Shown here: positions 56,801 through 62,800 of the stretch, piece by piece
Numbering within the stretch: position 1 is the first letter of the stretch
Layout of the letters: each line of letters starts with the position of its first letter
Program-made: the position numbers
From: Escherichia coli O127:H6 str. E2348/69
Lineage (GTDB): Bacteria > Pseudomonadota > Gammaproteobacteria > Enterobacterales > Enterobacteriaceae
NCBI RefSeq assembly: GCF_000026545.1
Contig: NC_011601.1
Strand: one strand, 5' to 3'
DNA length: 64,000 nucleotides

Positions 56801-59800
56801 ATTTACCCTGAGCGTGTGCAGCACGTTTTCAATCCAGACGAAGCGGTTTATATCGTTGCCCGGTCTGCCACATCCGGCACCCGCACATCTGGCGTTAGCC
56901 GTGGGCTTTCCCCTGTGCTGCCGCCGAAGATGGCCGAGCGGATGCGCGAACGTGAACGGCACGAGAAAAACCGAGTCAGACCCCGCAAGGTGATCACTGA
57001 GGCGATACGCGCTGACATTATCGATCGCTCTGCAAAAGGTCAGAAGAATCGTTACATTGCAAGCAAGGTTGGTGTGTCTGAAACCTCTGTGCGGAAGGTG
57101 TTGAACATGGCGCGTATGAGTGCGCACTAGTGCAAGGTAATACGTTCACCTTACTTCACGCGCACTAACCCCTGAGAACCGTGCCAGCTCTGGCCTCAAA
57201 ACGCCCATTTCGGGGCACCTCATTCCTCTTAATCGATACCGTTCTGAATCCTGCCTCGGCGGGAGGATTACGCACGCCCGCGCCATGACGATGGCCGGGC
57301 CTATCTCGTCAGTGAATCCGCTGGCACAACCTACGTAGGAGTTTTACATATGGCCGATAACATTTACTCGCCTGACCAGTTCCGCCCACATTATGGCGGG
57401 GTGGAATCTGACAATGATATTCACATCGAGGCTTATGACCGGGATGTCCAGACCCGTTTAGAGTCCAAATCCGTATTTCTGGCCGAGGGGCTGTCTACAT
57501 ACAGGCCGCTGAAAGCCAGCAACCAATATCGTGTTGATCGCCTGAGTGGTGATCTGGAGGTGAAGGGCAGAACCGCAGGGCAATCGCTGGAGCCTACCGC
57601 TGTTAAGTCGGATAAGCTGATTATCTCTGTGGATACGCTGAGTTATATCCGCATCCCGATTGACTATCAGGATGACTGGACAGCACCCACCTTTCGCTCA
57701 GAGCTGAGCCGCAATATCGGTACTGCTCACGCTAAATTCTACGACGAAGCGCACACCATCCAGCTAATCAAAGCGACTGACTTTGTACCGCCGCCGACGT
57801 TGCAACCAACGTTTAACCCGCTGACGGATAATGTTGTCTCGCTCGACCTGACAGCGGGGAGCGAAGAGGACGCCGCAAACGAATTGTCTCACGCCGTAAA
57901 AGCGGCTGCTAATCGCTTTCTCACTGAGAAAGATATTCCGGTGGCCGAGCTGGTACTGCTTATCGACCCGGCTTGGTTCAGCATCCTGATGGAACATAAG
58001 AAGCTGATGAACATCCGTTACAGCCGGGATAGTGGCAACGATTACGCATGGCGTCGAGTTGGCTATGTCGCTTGGGTACGAGTCATTGAGCTGAACAGTT
58101 ACCCGCAGGGAGCCATTACCGCGCATGAACTGGGCGCTGATTATAATGTGACCGCAGGGGAAGCGCTGACACGGGCGACGCTGTTCCGGCCTGCGTCTGT
58201 ACTTGTGACAGTCGAAGCGCAGAGCGTCATCAATCGCCAGTGGGATGAGGAACGCGAAATGACAATGGTGATGGACTCATATCGCCTGTTCAATGTTGGG
58301 CTGCGCCGCCCGGACTGCGTTATCAATTTCCGACAAGCTGCATAACTGGAGGGGCTGAGTCATGGTTAATGATGCTTACGCCCCTGAGCTGTTGCGATCC
58401 CTTTTCCTGTATGACCCGGTGACAGGTCGCCTGCACCATAAAGCTAGCCGATGCCGGGTTACGGCTGGCTCCTATGCTGACTCCACCCGGCGAGCTGATG
58501 GCTATCGTCAAGTTGCCCTGCGACTGGATGGCAAGCAGTACCAGCTAAAAGCCCATCGCGTAGCGTGGATTCTTGCGCATGGTGCTATTCCCCACGGTAT
58601 GCAGATCGATCACATCAACGGTACCCGTGACGATAACCGCTTATGCAATCTGCGATTGGTTACGCAGCGGGAAAACGACCAGAACCGACGCAAGGCAAGG
58701 GGGTATAGCTGGAATAAGGGCTGTAGCAAATGGGAGGCTTACATACGCGTTGGTGGTGTACTCCGTCACCTTGGCTTATTCACATCCGAAGCGGCAGCTC
58801 GTGCTGTGTACCTGAAAGCTAAAGCCAGATACCACCCCTCAACGCCTGACGATTTATTGCAGGCTGCCTAACCCTCGGAGGTTCCATTAATGGCTGATGA
58901 AAAGCCGATTAGGTCGCTGGCAGGTGATGACCCACGCCGCCAGCAGTACGCCGAACTGTTGGCGCAGGCTAGCCGCATGACTATTCCCCGGCTGCATCCG
59001 GGCGATGCTAACAGTGTGATGAGTCAGCTTGCAACGATGCTTGGCGCACCTGTCCCGATAGTCGGTGCTATGACTGAGCACGCCGCTGCATGGCGTGCCT
59101 GTCTGCTTGAGCAAGGACTTGGCGAGCTTCTGGATGGCTTGAGTAAACAGGTGCTGACCATCTTCTTTCTGCTCTGCTGGAGAGACAGCGCCTTGCGATT
59201 GGCTGGTAAGCAAAAGAAACGGCTTACAGCCGCCAGCGAGGGTTTGACCATTGAGCAATACCGGGCAATGCACCCGGCTTACAGAGAGGATAAAGAACAT
59301 GATAACCACGATTAAATTAAGGTGGCGGTACATCGAGACGCCGCCAATGACTGGCGCACTCGCTGACCTGAAACAGTGGGTAATGAATGCCGTAGAGCCT
59401 GAGCTTGAGGCTGAATTTCGTAAGCTGCTGGGGCAGATGCGTCGCAATGGTATCAGTGATGGGCGCGTAAATGCGGTGGCTGATGAGCTTTATGCTCTGG
59501 TATGCCAACGCCAGCGCGAAGAATACGAAGCCTGCAAGCGGGCTGCCTCTGACAATGGAGACTTTGAATCATGGTTACACGGACAGACCAGCTACTAAGA
59601 AAAGCTATGAGGGGCTATCTGGAACACCTTGGCAACATGCCGCTGGCGGAACGGATTACAAATGCTGCTGTATTCGAAGATGTGTATCGCTTTTTGTTGA
59701 ATGGTTCCGGGCGGCTGGAGCTGCGCCGCGCTGACGTGGCTGCCGTCCGTGTCTTCCTTTGGAACTATCAATACCGCCGCTGTGCTGTGACAGGTAAGCC

Positions 59801-62800
59801 GCTGCGCCTTGCGTCTGCCGTTCTGGATCACTGCCACCGAACCGGGCGCGTGCGTGCTGTGGTGCATCGTTCTGCTAACGCTGCTGAGGGAGGCCGCTAC
59901 GTTGGGCGGACGTGTGGTGTTAGCGTTACGAATCTAAGGGCTATGATTGGCAGCTATCGCAAGCAATACACTGGTATTGGCATGTTATATCCATAACTGC
60001 GGGGTAATAAACCCCGCCGAAATAGTAGCGTAGCCACTCAAACAGGAATGTTGTAGTAATGACAAATTGCATTAGTTAGTAGAGCTGGTGCAGCAGACGC
60101 TGCAATATTTAGCGTCCCCGCATATGCTTTACCAATCATATTTACAACCCACTTCCCAAGGCTATCACTGAAATTGTCCGGGGTAGTTGGGGCGGGTGAT
60201 TCTTGTATAGCTTGATGAAGGCTCTTAATATCTTCATCATTAGCGCCCCAATCCTTGAGCTGCTTTTCAAGCGAGTTGAAGTCTCCAGCGTTGACAGTAT
60301 TATTTTGTGAAATGTCCCCGTTACCAGAGCCAATAACGCCAGCATTGTTTACGTTGCCATGAATGTTGGTCACGTTATGGACAGTCATTGGCGCTACCTC
60401 TTTTTCTCTTAATGAAAACTGTAACCCTTCGCCTAAAATACCCTTTGACTCTAAGTCTAAAGACCAGTCGAGGATCTTATTCCTAACGGTAGTAATTACA
60501 TGTTCTAGTACACCAGCGCTTATAACCCATACCATCTCAGTCTTTTGTCCGATACTTTGAGCTAATGTATCAGCCATCCAATCCGGGAGAGGTAAAAAAG
60601 GGTTTTCTCCTTTATTGCTCATCTTTTTTATAGATGATATTGATTCTGTAATGTGAAACGTTGATACCATTGCATTTAATTCCGCGTCGTTGAAGTTGAC
60701 CACAAGCGGAACCCAGCTCTGATGTTGGGGACTATATGCTTTTAACTGCGATTGACCTTTCCTGTATTCAGGAACCGTATCAAAGCTGGGATAGCCATTT
60801 AATTCGAGCTGTATCCACTCGGTCAAATCGCTGAGGCCGAGCTTCACTGCAATCATTTTGGCCTTCATGAGTACAGATAAAATGTCGGAGTCGGGATCGC
60901 ACGCTAGTGCTTGAAGTTCAAGAACTGGTGAGTTAGCCATATCAAGACCTTAGTATTGTTTTGATAAGGTATCTTACCCGCATCGAACCATGCAGTCTAA
61001 GGTTCGCAGGCCAAACTCACCCATGAGTTAGATGTTTATTCCTTCATGCTGGATGAGTTCGACATACTTACCGATCTCTATAGGGGAAGCTGCATTTTTC
61101 GAGTAAGTTTTGAAGCTCTCTGTACTCCCGCGCTCATGACCGACGAGCAGGGCAATACGATCTTCTGGCACTTGAGCACGGTCGAGCTGTTGCACAAAAG
61201 CATGGCGGAGTGAGTGAAACACTTTTCTCTCTGCGGCAGGCTCGCCAAGAGCTTTACGCTTTGCTCGCGTGAATTGCTGCGTATGCCACGTTGAGCGCTT
61301 CCCATCGGCCCGGTCTGTTATTGATGCGTGATAGAACAGAAAACCGCTATGTGTGGTCTTGAGCAATGACTTCACGAGAGGGATTATCTTGCTGTGTACA
61401 GGGACGATTCGCGCCGCGCTCTTAGTCTTCCCCTCGGTGATCTCAAAGCACAATATACCCTCGATAGTTTTAATACTGCTTTCACGTAGCGTACATATCT
61501 CATTGATCCGCATACCGCTGTATGCACCAATAGCCGTTACCGCCTTCATCTCGTCATCAAGCAAGGCATAGACCTTTGCCAGCTCTCCCGGTGCGAAGAC
61601 TTCATAGCTGACCTTGCTGCTTTTTGCTTCGAGCGCATGACCGCGCCAAGGATTGTCCTGTGGTGCATCGTGATAGCGATTGCGTGCCAGATCCCATATC
61701 TGCGCCAGTGCGCTTATATAGTTTTGGATAGTTTGGGGCGCTCGCTCAGTTTTGAGCTTATCTAACCAGCCTGTAACTATGGTTCGGTTAATATCCCGCA
61801 ACTGAACATCTTTCTTTTTCAAGTGGGTTAACAGCACCTCTACGGCTTTGTTGGTCTTGGATAACGTGGTTAGCTTTCGCTTCTCGCTGTATTGAAGCAG
61901 GTACAAATCACGCATTTTTAGCAAGGAAGGGCAAGCCTGAATCGATGCACCAAACGATGCGGGGGCTTCCTTGGCGTACACACTGACACGGCGTAGCTCA
62001 TCAATGATTTGGTCTACAGATGAGCCGCCTTGTGGCTTTAGCAGATTCCGTAAGCGAGTCCATTCCAGAGCAATAGCATCTCGAAACAATCGCGCTTGGC
62101 GTATGTCTCGTGTTCCTGTGCTTTTCATAAAGTAGCGCTTCCCTTGGAACAGGTGGCGCATATAGCTGGGAATAGCTATCCGCACGAGGTAATTCCCGCA
62201 GGGATCTAAAACTAGATAACGATCTCTCTTGAAACTCATACAAACCCCGGTTATGTTGTCGGGGCTTTTTCATGGCTAAACAGTCTGTGAAATGTGCCGG
62301 GGTCATGAGCTTTAGTCTAGCTAGTTCAACAAGTTAACGATGATTGTTGAAGCAAGCTAAGTCGCTATAACCCGTGCCGGTTCGAGTCCGGCCTTCGGCA
62401 CCACATCGTATGCAAATCGAGTCGCTCAAGGGCGGCTTTTTTTGTGTCTGGGATCCATTAGTTACCTATCTTTCTCGCTATTTTAACTCTCTCAGAGCCA
62501 ACCAATTTCAACCCATCGCAAACGAAAAATGTTGGTACAGGCGTTGGTATTTTCGGTTCGATATTAATTTGTATTAGCTCAGTCCTGATCTGACAGCTAT
62601 CTGCCAGATCAGGTTCGGATTAATACATTATATCTGCCCGCCTACACCTTTAAACTTCTCAATAAACGCGACGATCTTCTGGAAAACCGTCTGTTTTTTC
62701 GTCTTATATTGCGGGTTTAACGGACTGAGTTTTGGCAATGTCTCGTTTAATTCCGTGCCATTTTCGGTGGCGTATTCGCGTTTTAAAGACGTGCGAATAT

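What the first reader, a model, noticed from the sequence alone, without database searches (positions are those of the whole stretch)
57350..59996. HNH-AP2 endonuclease embedded in a possible packaging-redirection module
In phages, HNH endonucleases usually sit next to terminase genes and assist packaging. Here the HNH is flanked by a 331-aa protein and three 100-140-aa proteins, but there is no large terminase, portal or capsid gene. That pattern fits a satellite that hijacks helper-phage packaging with small proteins. Alternatively the HNH-AP2 protein is a homing endonuclease or a defence nuclease.
Basis: inference. Interest (0 to 1): 0.5.

Follow-up and report, generated by a model that had tools for sequence, protein, structure and literature searches.

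The report
Satellite island encoding T7-like capsid
The HNH gene sits in a 15-kb mobile island of E. coli E2348/69 that carries its own T7-family capsid and scaffold genes and a near-exact copy of DNA from the genome end of a group of virulent coliphages, so it looks like an undescribed kind of phage parasite whose candidate helper phages are already in culture.

Summary
The ORFs are real and the HNH is real. The 331-aa protein is a full-length Autographiviridae major capsid protein (phrog_267 E 3e-64; 56% identical to Bonnellvirus capsids).

The genes lie in a 15,061-bp island in tRNA-Leu (leuX), bounded by 31-bp direct repeats, with an integrase. Defence cargo varies between copies around a conserved 14-gene operon.

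Besides the capsid gene, the operon holds:
- a short scaffolding-protein homologue (hhalign 84-94%);
- a truncated small-terminase homologue (PF11123 E 3e-4; hhalign 88-91%);
- an endonuclease VII-like protein.

There is no portal, large terminase or tail gene.

A 179-nt non-coding stretch upstream of the helicase is 97% identical to the left-end region of Bonnellvirus genomes, while the capsid genes are only about 70% identical at DNA level.

The island occurs in at least nine enterobacterial genera, is always 14.5-15.7 kb (about 0.35 of the phage genome), and all core genes are under purifying selection.

Best reading: a new family of satellites of virulent T7-like phages. The HNH-AP2 belongs to a homing-endonuclease family. 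It is not a terminase helper. No transfer experiment exists, and no prior description was found.

The parts
47312..47342 (+). attL: 31-bp direct repeat, the 3' end of tRNA-Leu(CAA) leuX (tRNA at 47258-47342)
   Evidence: ARAGORN and Rfam tRNA. Exact 31-bp repeat with 62373-62403.
47860..49921 (.). Left variable cargo arm: low-GC ORFs of 182 aa (+), 156 aa (+) and 253/230 aa (-), all of unknown function
   Evidence: No Pfam or PADLOC hits. Only phrog_11802, of unknown function. Other island copies carry AbiJ, DUF3800 or Rap1a in this position. GC is 0.41-0.47.
50315..50884 (+). Serine recombinase / DNA invertase family protein (189 aa)
   Evidence: PF00239 E 8e-37. phrog_125 DNA invertase E 5e-55. 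The position is conserved in all island copies but the alleles are 26-99% identical.
51608..51813 (+). Non-coding segment shared with the Bonnellvirus left genome end. It has short CTGTC-type repeats, a T7-promoter-like ATATCACTATAGACAC motif and an AT-rich stretch. Candidate cis-acting ori, promoter or packaging element.
   Evidence: 179 nt are 97% identical to megetsur 40408-40584. Identity is 83-98% to 15 Bonnellvirus records, E down to 1e-77. In J8-65 coordinates it maps about 125-310 nt inside the 259-bp left terminal repeat, upstream of the early promoters. It is present once in each of 52 E. coli genomes, 43 of them at >=95%.
52006..52022 (-). Inverted short copy of the ATAGACACTTTCATAAT unit, 217 nt downstream of the first copy and just upstream of the helicase gene
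   Evidence: Inverted repeat I1, 17 nt, 88% complementary. Phage megetsur also has a second, inverted copy, after its RNA polymerase gene.
52150..53994 (+). RecQ-family SF2 helicase (614 aa) with an uncharacterised 250-aa N-terminal region. Candidate replication protein.
   Evidence: DEAD and Helicase_C. recQ_fam E 6e-41. PADLOC 'DpdF' sub-model at 919 bits, but no other dpd genes are present. AF2 of the N-terminal region failed, pLDDT 43.
54032..54469 (+). Core ORF, 145 aa, function unknown
   Evidence: Conserved in all island copies, 40% identical in the divergent lineage. dN/dS 0.06-0.20. No family hits.
54466..54675 (+). 69-aa homologue of the N-terminal half of the T7 gp18-type small terminase (terS-like)
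   Evidence: PF11123 DNA_Packaging_2 E 3e-4, below Pfam's cut-off. phrog_891 terS E 0.02. hhalign against Autographiviridae terS gives probability 88% and 90.6%. Shared AAELS..FLK.N motif. Distant family members also weakly hit PF11123.
54672..55893 (+). Four core ORFs (58, 187, 78 and 79 aa). The 187-aa protein has a weak HTH match.
   Evidence: Conserved synteny at 35-42% identity in the divergent lineage. dN/dS 0.12-0.29. HTH hints only.
55897..56577 (+). 226-aa scaffolding-protein homologue, shorter than the 259-411 aa phage scaffolds
   Evidence: hhalign of its C-terminal ~100 residues against the C-termini of five Autographiviridae scaffolds gives probability 94% and 84%. Shared C-terminal QY(D/N)xxYxxLVxxR..GK..G motif. 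Same scaffold-then-capsid gene order as in the phages.
56717..57130 (+). 137-aa protein with a C-terminal HTH. This slot holds replaceable alleles.
   Evidence: HTH_23 E 4e-4. Replaced by unrelated 115-aa or 160-aa HTH proteins in L007, L009, L012 and L005.
57350..58345 (+). Major capsid protein (331 aa), Autographiviridae type
   Evidence: phrog_267 major head protein E 3e-64. 56% identical over 98% of its length to Bonnellvirus capsids. Solved phage capsid chains 23sf and 8eld match at E 9e-78 and 5e-73. dN/dS 0.13-0.15. It is the most conserved core protein between the island lineages.
58362..58871 (+). HNH_3 (AP2-type C-terminus) endonuclease, 169 aa, of the homing-endonuclease family
   Evidence: A 51%-identical homologue sits at a different position in the divergent island.
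58890..59315 (+). Core ORF, 141 aa, all-alpha, function unknown
   Evidence: Homologues are found only in enterobacterial islands. 24% identical counterpart in the divergent lineage. AF2 pLDDT 67. No Foldseek match.
59299..59598 (+). Core ORF, 99 aa (RefSeq start; the longest ORF starts at 59251), function unknown
59571..59996 (+). Endonuclease VII-like protein (141 aa) with a ~60-aa N-terminal extension
   Evidence: PF02945 E 3.9e-6. phrog_423 E 1.4e-15. hhalign against phage endoVII gives probability 92%. BLASTP against Lidtsur endoVII E 4e-6.
60038..60940 (-). Right variable cargo: AbiTii abortive-infection protein
   Evidence: PF18864 E 4e-44. PADLOC AbiTii E 2e-48. Other copies carry a YafO toxin, an NmeDI-type restriction-modification pair or a hypothetical protein in this position.
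61028..62239 (-). Tyrosine integrase (403 aa)
   Evidence: Phage_integrase E 1e-16 plus DUF6538. phrog_1 E 3e-35.
62373..62403 (+). attR: second copy of the 31-bp repeat

Best explanation
The flagged genes are the right-hand end of the core operon of a 15-kb integrative island at window 47343-62403. The island is most likely a phage satellite of virulent Bonnellvirus-type (T7 family, about 42 kb) phages.

Shown:
- The island is att-bounded and has an integrase.
- It has a conserved operon flanked by swappable defence cargo.
- The operon encodes a complete capsid protein, a short scaffold homologue, a truncated terS homologue and two nucleases (HNH-AP2 and EndoVII-like).
- It carries a near-identical copy of non-coding DNA from the left end of the phage genome.
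- It has none of the other virion or packaging genes.

Inferred mechanism:
1. On infection, the phage-derived cis element just upstream of the helicase responds to helper factors, as a promoter and/or origin. This switches on the operon and replication.
2. The integrase excises the island.
3. Its own scaffold and capsid protein assemble a shell on the helper's portal and core. The shell is probably small (T=4-like) and fits 15 kb but not 42 kb.
4. The helper's large terminase, redirected or blocked by the 69-aa terS-like protein, packages island DNA.
5. Helper tails complete the particle.

The HNH-AP2 and EndoVII-like nucleases most likely cut or process helper or island DNA, for interference or concatemer resolution. 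They probably do not assist the terminase. Their role is the least certain step.
For: Island boundaries and integrase.

Identity of the source genome, and 59 of 5,426 complete E. coli genomes carry the island.

Conserved core with variable Abi, TA and RM cargo at both ends.

Capsid protein.

Scaffold homologue.

terS-like protein.

EndoVII-like protein.

No other phage gene anywhere in the window.

Phage-end DNA:
- 179 nt at 97% identity, with 15 Bonnellvirus records matching at 83-98%.
- It lies in the gene-free region between the last late gene and the first early gene.
- It maps just inside the 259-bp terminal repeat of J8-65.
- The capsid genes of the same phages are only 67-77% identical at DNA level.
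- The segment is more conserved among E. coli islands than the adjacent genes are.

Purifying selection on every core gene.

Island capsid proteins form their own deep clade. They are 58-62% identical to each other and 50-57% identical to phage capsids, so the gene was acquired once and long ago.

Spread across genera at 92-94% capsid identity: Trabulsiella, Enterobacter, Kluyvera and Kosakonia, plus Citrobacter, Cronobacter, Phytobacter and Klebsiella.

Size stays at 14.5-15.7 kb despite cargo turnover, which is 0.34-0.37 of the 41-42.5 kb phages. By my own knowledge this is the ratio of P4 to P2 and of SaPI1 to 80alpha.

The host genera of the matching phages (Escherichia, Enterobacter, Cronobacter, Kosakonia, Pantoea) overlap the genera that carry the island.
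Against: - There is no experimental or sequence evidence of excision, replication or encapsidation. The two IMG/VR entries with the island are predictions from an integrated metagenome contig and an isolate genome. They are not virion DNA.
- The terS-like and scaffold assignments are remote homology. PF11123 scores below Pfam's cut-off, and hhalign probabilities are 84-94%.
- The phage-like segment is not the terminal repeat itself. Its function in the phage is unknown.
- Its 28-nt core occurs only twice in megetsur, so it is not a general late promoter.
- The segment is missing from island variants L005, L007 and L009, and only 48 nt of it is present in L012.
- No excisionase, primase or recognisable origin was identified.
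- Capsid size redirection is inferred from genome-size ratio alone.
Confidence: 0.6

Rival explanations
1. A defence island with no transfer of its own. The capsid, scaffold and terS-like proteins act as dominant-negative decoys that co-assemble with or titrate the phage's own proteins and poison head assembly and packaging. The nucleases cut phage DNA. The island then moves only by ordinary horizontal routes.
For: - Defence cargo sits at both ends: AbiTii, AbiJ, YafO and a restriction-modification pair.
- The terS-like protein lacks the C-terminal half of phage terS, as an inhibitor might.
- The scaffold homologue is truncated.
- Two nucleases are present.
- No encapsidation evidence exists.
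Against: - A decoy role does not explain the constant 14.5-15.7 kb size.
- It does not explain the intact att sites and integrase, or the near-identical islands in at least nine genera.
- It does not explain retention of a helper-like cis-acting DNA segment that is more conserved than the genes around it.
- Interference and transfer coexist in all characterised satellites (my own knowledge), so this is partly a sub-case and not a full rival.
Confidence: 0.2
2. For the HNH gene only: it is a selfish free-standing homing endonuclease that invaded next to the capsid gene. It contributes nothing to the island's life cycle.
For: - The family is multi-copy in many phages, at 2-5 places per genome.
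- It resembles I-HmuI.
- A 43%-identical HNH sits between the scaffold and capsid genes in coliphage phiHAO78-1.
- Its position differs between the island lineages.
Against: - It is retained in both deep island lineages at 51% identity, and in every copy examined.
- Its dN/dS is 0.13-0.33, so it has been kept functional for as long as the island family has existed.
- Satellite-encoded nucleases that attack the helper are known, such as PLE NixI (PMC9410903, listed).
Confidence: 0.3
3. One reading: the HNH cooperates with a terminase, as in HK97-type cos phages, and the three adjacent small proteins redirect packaging.
For: The island lacks terL and portal genes and does appear to depend on a helper.
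Against: - The HNH is of the HNH_3/AP2 homing type.
- Its position is not fixed next to the capsid gene.
- One neighbour is an EndoVII-like nuclease.
- The other two neighbours have no similarity to any packaging protein.
- By my own knowledge, Autographiviridae package genomes with direct terminal repeats and have no HNH accessory factor.
Confidence: 0.05
4. A decaying remnant of an integrated T7-like prophage.
For: The capsid, scaffold-like, terS-like and endoVII-like genes all have Autographiviridae relatives.
Against: - The genes are not in phage order. The terS-like gene lies upstream of the scaffold gene, and helicase and HTH genes are interspersed.
- All core genes are under purifying selection.
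- The same compact architecture persists between lineages that are only 35-58% identical.
- No pseudogene fragment of any other phage gene is present.
Confidence: 0.03

Closest known systems
Capsid-forming PICIs (cf-PICIs) of Enterobacteriaceae
   Same: - A chromosomal satellite of about 15 kb that encodes its own capsid protein instead of remodelling the helper's.
- An HNH gene is present.
- Found in several genera.
   Different: - cf-PICIs encode the full head and packaging set (capsid, portal, protease, head-tail connectors, terS, terL) and steal only tails (bioRxiv 10.1101/2022.09.08.507074, abstract seen).
- By my own knowledge, their capsid is of the siphovirus HK97 type.
- This island has only a capsid protein, a scaffold homologue and a terS fragment, all of Autographiviridae type.
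- Its candidate helpers are virulent podophages.
SaPIbov5 Ccm (a satellite-encoded capsid-protein homologue that redirects capsid size)
   Same: A satellite that lacks most head genes but carries a homologue of the helper's major capsid protein (my own knowledge).
   Different: - Different hosts and phage families, and temperate helpers.
- No scaffold or terS homologue accompanies Ccm.
- Here the capsid protein is full length and alignable end to end with solved capsid proteins.
P4 (helper P2)
   Same: - Integrates in a tRNA-Leu gene.
- About one third of the helper's genome size.
- Carries a copy of helper cis-acting end DNA (cos).
- Hosts defence hotspots (my own knowledge).
   Different: - P4 uses the helper's capsid protein with the external scaffold Sid.
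- The P4 marker genes (psu, delta, sid, alpha) were not found here.
PLE of Vibrio cholerae (helper ICP1) and PICMIs of Vibrionaceae
   Same: - Satellites of virulent phages.
- PLE uses a nuclease effector against helper DNA (PMC9410903) and makes small capsids (PMC10945586).
- PICMIs rely on a small terminase (PMC10803314).
   Different: - Both use helper coat protein. Neither encodes a capsid protein.
- The core genes are unrelated.
Free-standing HNH-AP2 homing endonucleases of phages (I-HmuI-like, phrog_99)
   Same: Domain make-up and sequence family. A relative sits next to a capsid gene in phiHAO78-1.
   Different: This one resides in a chromosomal island and has been kept under purifying selection across deep island lineages.

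Membership tests
Autographiviridae-type major capsid protein (phrog_267) | Full-length sequence match to the family profile and to solved capsid proteins | tested here: met
   phrog_267 E 3e-64 over residues 1-329. PDB 23sf and 8eld match at E 9e-78 and 5e-73 over residues 1-324 and 1-330. 803 phage records match.
HNH-AP2 homing endonuclease | HNH_3 catalytic domain | tested here: met
   PF13392 E 1.8e-18. 1u3e I-HmuI E 1e-6.
HNH-AP2 homing endonuclease | C-terminal AP2 DNA-binding domain (PF00847) | tested here: inconclusive
   Not reported by Pfam for this protein at E<=5. Full-length homologues at 53-57% identity carry PF00847, and the C-terminus aligns with a phage HNH tail.
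HNH-AP2 homing endonuclease | Site-specific cleavage and homing | not testable with these tools
   Needs a nuclease assay on helper and island DNA.
Terminase-associated HNH of cos phages (HK97 gp74 type) | Small HNH encoded next to terS/terL and required for cos cleavage | tested here: not met
   No terL in the window. It belongs to a different HNH family. Its position varies between island lineages.
T7 gp18-type small terminase (PF11123) | Match to the family profile above Pfam's cut-off over the full length | tested here: not met
   21.3 bits against a cut-off of 27.5, and only profile positions 12-47 of 79 match. Remote homology of the N-terminal half is supported by hhalign at 88-91%. It should be filed as terS-like, not as a terS.
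Autographiviridae scaffolding protein | Homology to phage scaffolds and a position upstream of the capsid gene | tested here: inconclusive
   Only the C-terminal ~100 residues align: hhalign 84-94%, BLASTP E 0.55, tblastn against phages finds nothing. The gene order matches the phages.
cf-PICI | Encodes portal, protease, head-tail connectors, terS and terL in addition to the capsid protein | tested here: not met
   None found by Pfam, PHROGs or tblastn with phage proteins.
Classical PICI / P4-like / PLE | Family marker genes (alpA and pri-rep; psu, delta, sid and alpha; RepA_N and others) | tested here: not met
   No such families appear in Pfam, PHROGs or NCBIfam scans of the island proteins. 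SatelliteFinder itself was not run.
Phage satellite (general) | Helper-dependent excision, replication, packaging and transfer | not testable with these tools
   Only indirect evidence exists: att sites and integrase, helper-like cis DNA, constant size and spread between genera.
Dpd (7-deazaguanine) defence system | DpdF helicase accompanied by dpdA-C and dpdD-K genes | tested here: not met
   Only the helicase matches a PADLOC 'DpdF' sub-model. No other Dpd component is in the island.

The most novel reading that the evidence does not exclude
This is the first satellite family of virulent T7-like (Autographiviridae) phages, with a so-far undescribed 'shell-only' strategy. It would supply its own capsid protein and a shortened scaffold to build satellite-sized heads. 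It would steal portal, core, terminase and tail from the helper, and it would be switched on and replicated or packaged through a helper-derived left-end DNA element. A more speculative variant: the conserved serine recombinase acts on the 28-nt unit that island and phage share. It would either fuse the island to helper concatemers or invert the 21-kb phage segment between the phage's two inverted copies.
Probability: 0.4. Interest if true: 0.85.

Novelty: new variant of a known kind. Interest (0 to 1): 0.78.

Why it matters
- T7-family phages are the textbook virulent coliphages and are common therapy candidates. I found no satellite of them in the literature available here.
- A satellite that brings only the shell proteins would fill the gap between elements that remodel helper capsids (P4, SaPI, PLE) and those that build whole heads (cf-PICI).
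- It would show that capsid genes can be maintained for long periods outside viruses.
- It would identify a mobile carrier of defence genes (AbiTii, AbiJ, restriction-modification, toxins) across at least nine enterobacterial genera.
- It is directly testable. The host is the standard EPEC strain E2348/69, and the matching phages (the Danish 'sur' phages, HHU8, LF82-23) were isolated on laboratory E. coli.
- A practical point: the helicase is matched by a PADLOC 'DpdF' model, which could produce false Dpd calls.

Tried and rejected
- A search for LIMEzero-type phage promoters in the window found 0 matches.
- A sigma-70 promoter and terminator scan of the island found nothing above the shuffled expectation.
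- Repeat mining in Lidtsur for a promoter consensus was uninformative.
- An Rfam scan of the island found only the tRNA.
- DNA folding of the shared segment gave z-score 0.31, so no special structure.
- The 28-nt CACTATAG unit as a general phage late promoter is rejected. It has only two copies in megetsur, one of them inverted.
- The shared segment as the terminal repeat itself is rejected. It maps inside the 259-bp repeat of J8-65.
- The 226-aa protein against PDB and against phage tblastn gave no significant hit. Only profile-profile comparison worked.
- The 137-aa HTH protein as a terS gave no alignment.
- AF2 of the 141-aa protein gave pLDDT 67, and a Foldseek search of BFVD found nothing at E<=0.001.
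- AF2 of the helicase N-terminal region gave pLDDT 43.5, which is unusable.
- The non-coding regions of island variants L007 and L005 showed no phage-end match.
- Contig L007 is not a circular form. It is an integrated copy broken at the att repeat.
- Literature and accession searches found no prior description.

Full report
**1. What is at the coordinates**

The window is from E. coli O127:H6 E2348/69, 100% identical to NZ_CP059840.2.

- The 169-aa protein is an HNH_3 endonuclease: Pfam E 1.8e-18 and phrog_99 E 3e-53.
- Its closest solved relative is the homing endonuclease I-HmuI.
- Pfam does not report an AP2 domain in it.
- Full-length homologues at 53-57% identity carry PF00847 plus PF13392. 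Its C-terminus also aligns with the AP2-type tail of a phage HNH.
- So 'HNH-AP2' is acceptable as a family label, by homology.

**2. The premise that fails**

The 331-aa neighbour is a major capsid protein.

- It matches phrog_267 (major head protein) at E 3e-64 over its whole length.
- It matches solved phage capsid chains at E 9e-78 and 5e-73.
- It matches 803 phage records. The best are Bonnellvirus phages (Autographiviridae) of Escherichia, Enterobacter, Kosakonia, Cronobacter and Pantoea, at 54-56% identity.
- The last of the 'three small proteins' is endonuclease VII-like.
- The other two (141 and 99 aa) stayed uncharacterised. Homologues occur only in enterobacterial islands. An AlphaFold model of the 141-aa protein is all-alpha at pLDDT 67 and has no structural match.

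**3. The surrounding element**

- tRNA-Leu(CAA) lies at 47258-47342. Its last 31 bp recur exactly at 62373-62403. This bounds a 15,061-bp island.
- A tyrosine integrase sits at the right end.
- Comparison with other copies shows a conserved core. The copies are from E. coli, from Trabulsiella, Enterobacter, Kluyvera and Kosakonia, and from a divergent Enterobacter-type lineage.
- The core is: serine recombinase, about 1.2 kb of non-coding or variable DNA, a RecQ-like helicase, and thirteen further genes ending with the EndoVII-like gene.
- Both flanks hold interchangeable cargo: AbiTii in this copy, and AbiJ, DUF3800, Rap1a, YafO or an NmeDI-type restriction-modification pair in others.
- This hotspot architecture is typical of satellites (my own knowledge of P4 and PICIs).
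- Every core gene has dN/dS of 0.06-0.56.
- The divergent lineage keeps the same gene order at 35-58% protein identity. The capsid protein is the best conserved.
- In that lineage the HNH homologue (51% identical) sits upstream of the helicase, not next to the capsid gene.

**4. More phage-derived parts**

I compared profiles of each island protein family with 54 protein families of Bonnellvirus, LIMEzero and PM16. Three pairs stood far above the background:

| Island protein | Phage protein | hhalign probability |
|---|---|---|
| EndoVII-like | endoVII | 92% |
| 69-aa ORF (54466-54675) | small terminase | 88% |
| 226-aa ORF (55897-56577) | scaffolding protein | 84% |

Scaffold link:
- It rises to 94% against five scaffolds.
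- It rests on the C-terminal ~100 residues, including a shared terminal motif.
- The gene lies upstream of the capsid gene, as in the phages.
- At 226 aa it is shorter than the 259-411 aa phage scaffolds.

terS link:
- Pfam PF11123 supports it independently at E 3e-4, below the cut-off.
- phrog_891 supports it at E 0.02.
- Weak PF11123 hits of distant family members support it.
- An enriched profile comparison gives 90.6%, E 1.3e-6.
- The protein covers only the N-terminal half of terS.

No other phage gene is present. A tblastn of every megetsur ORF against the whole window finds only the capsid gene and one non-coding stretch.

**5. The link to a helper**

- That non-coding stretch (window 51635-51813, extending to 51608 at lower identity) is 97% identical over 179 nt to phage megetsur.
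- It is 83-98% identical to 15 Bonnellvirus records, with E down to 1e-77.
- In the same phages the capsid genes are only 67-77% identical to the island's at DNA level, and nothing else matches.
- In the phages the segment lies in the 1.5-kb gene-free interval between the last late gene (endolysin) and the first early gene (SAMase).
- J8-65 has annotated 259-bp terminal repeats, which I verified to be identical. Using it as reference, the segment maps about 125-310 nt inside the left repeat, ahead of the sigma-70 early promoters.
- The glasur record is broken exactly inside the segment.
- The segment contains short CTGTC-type repeats, a T7-promoter-like ATATCACTATAGACAC motif and an AT-rich stretch.
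- A 17-nt inverted copy lies 217 nt downstream in the island. The phage has one inverted copy after its RNA polymerase gene.
- In the island the segment has the same orientation as the operon and ends 337 nt before the helicase start codon.
- It is present once per genome in 52 E. coli genomes, 43 of them at >=95%. The adjacent coding DNA is mostly 90-95% identical.
- It is absent from variants L005, L007 and L009, and only 48 nt of it is present in L012. These variants may have unsequenced helpers.

By my own knowledge, the region of T7 between the left terminal repeat and the early promoters holds the phiOL promoter, which is associated with origin function. Sequences flanking the repeat take part in concatemer processing. 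Which of these roles applies here is untested.

**6. Interpretation**

The best-supported reading is a satellite of Bonnellvirus-type phages. It would bring its own shell (capsid plus short scaffold) and a terS-like factor, and take portal, core, large terminase and tail from the helper.

Supporting, indirect evidence:
- Island size is constant at 14.5-15.7 kb despite cargo turnover. That is 0.34-0.37 of the 41-42.5 kb phage genomes, the ratio seen for T=4 satellites of T=7 helpers (my own knowledge).
- Near-identical islands occur in at least nine genera.
- The island capsid proteins form a deep clade of their own, sister to the phage capsids.
- The host ranges of island and phages overlap.

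Not shown: excision, replication, packaging, capsid size, or any role for the nucleases.

The main rival is a pure defence island whose structural homologues poison helper assembly. It explains the truncated terS and scaffold. It does not explain the size constancy, the mobility or the conserved helper-like DNA. Interference and transfer are also not exclusive.

For the HNH itself, a selfish homing endonuclease remains plausible. Its retention under purifying selection in both deep lineages argues for a function.

A decaying prophage is contradicted by the gene order, the selection, and the lack of any other phage remnant.

**7. Comparison with known systems and novelty**

- The island fails the marker tests for cf-PICI (no portal, protease, connectors or terL).
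- It also fails those for classical PICI, P4-like elements and PLE.
- It works most like a cross between cf-PICIs (own capsid protein) and SaPIbov5/Ccm or P4 (helper supplies the rest; helper end DNA is copied).
- Its helper type is that of PLE and PICMI, a virulent phage.
- Seven literature searches and one accession search of the held library found no description of it, and none of any satellite of Autographiviridae.
- The one paper that held all the search terms concerns other elements.
- I rate it a new variant of a known kind (phage satellites), with the caveat that the case is entirely computational.

**8. Verdict**

The real finding is larger than the flagged interval.

Noticed in passing
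window 62628-64000 and beyond (L001 17029-25501): The island's attR directly abuts a type I restriction-modification system (hsdR/S/M), a DUF4942 gene and McrB. The satellite-like island is therefore inserted at the edge of the classical 'immigration control region'.
   Followed up: no
window 47860-49921: Three low-GC ORFs (182, 156 and 253 aa) have no Pfam or PADLOC match. They occupy the slot where other island copies carry AbiJ, DUF3800 or Rap1a, so they are candidate uncharacterised defence cargo. The 253-aa ORF matches phrog_11802 (unknown function) at E 6e-127.
   Followed up: partly
window 52150-53994: PADLOC sub-model PDLC02858 'DpdF' matches the island helicase over its full length at 919 bits, although no other dpd gene is present. 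The sub-model seems to have been built from this island family and could cause false Dpd annotations.
   Followed up: partly
window 50315-50884 and counterparts in L004, L007, L010, L012: The serine recombinase / DNA invertase keeps its position, but its alleles are only 26-35% identical between islands whose other genes are more than 90% identical. The 137-aa HTH slot (56717-57130) is likewise swapped for unrelated HTH proteins. This points to modular exchange, perhaps related to helper specificity.
   Followed up: partly
L102 (megetsur) 18857-18884 and 40529-40556; window 51758-51785 and 52006-52022: A 28-nt unit containing CACTATAG occurs exactly twice in the phage, in inverted orientation about 21 kb apart. 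The island also has it twice, inverted and 217 nt apart, next to a DNA-invertase gene. Whether the unit is a recombination site, a promoter or a protein-binding site is unknown.
   Followed up: partly
L016 2026-2487 (Escherichia phage phiHAO78-1): An HNH-AP2 gene is inserted between the scaffold and capsid genes of an Autographiviridae coliphage. This shows that the capsid-gene neighbourhood is a recurrent landing site for this endonuclease family.
   Followed up: partly
window 30000-36000: A pronounced low-GC stretch (GC 0.37-0.46 against about 0.52 around it) suggests another horizontally acquired segment.
   Followed up: no
L003 3284-5249: One E. coli copy of the island has an IS3 element inserted in the homologue of the 253-aa cargo ORF. 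That makes this copy the longest measured, at 15.7 kb.
   Followed up: no
L007 15150-15229: The attR end of this Logan contig carries four tandem CCTTCGCACC repeats, probably an assembly artefact at the repeat boundary.
   Followed up: no
summary: One of the 59 E. coli matches to the capsid-HNH region is on a plasmid record and not on a chromosome.
   Followed up: no
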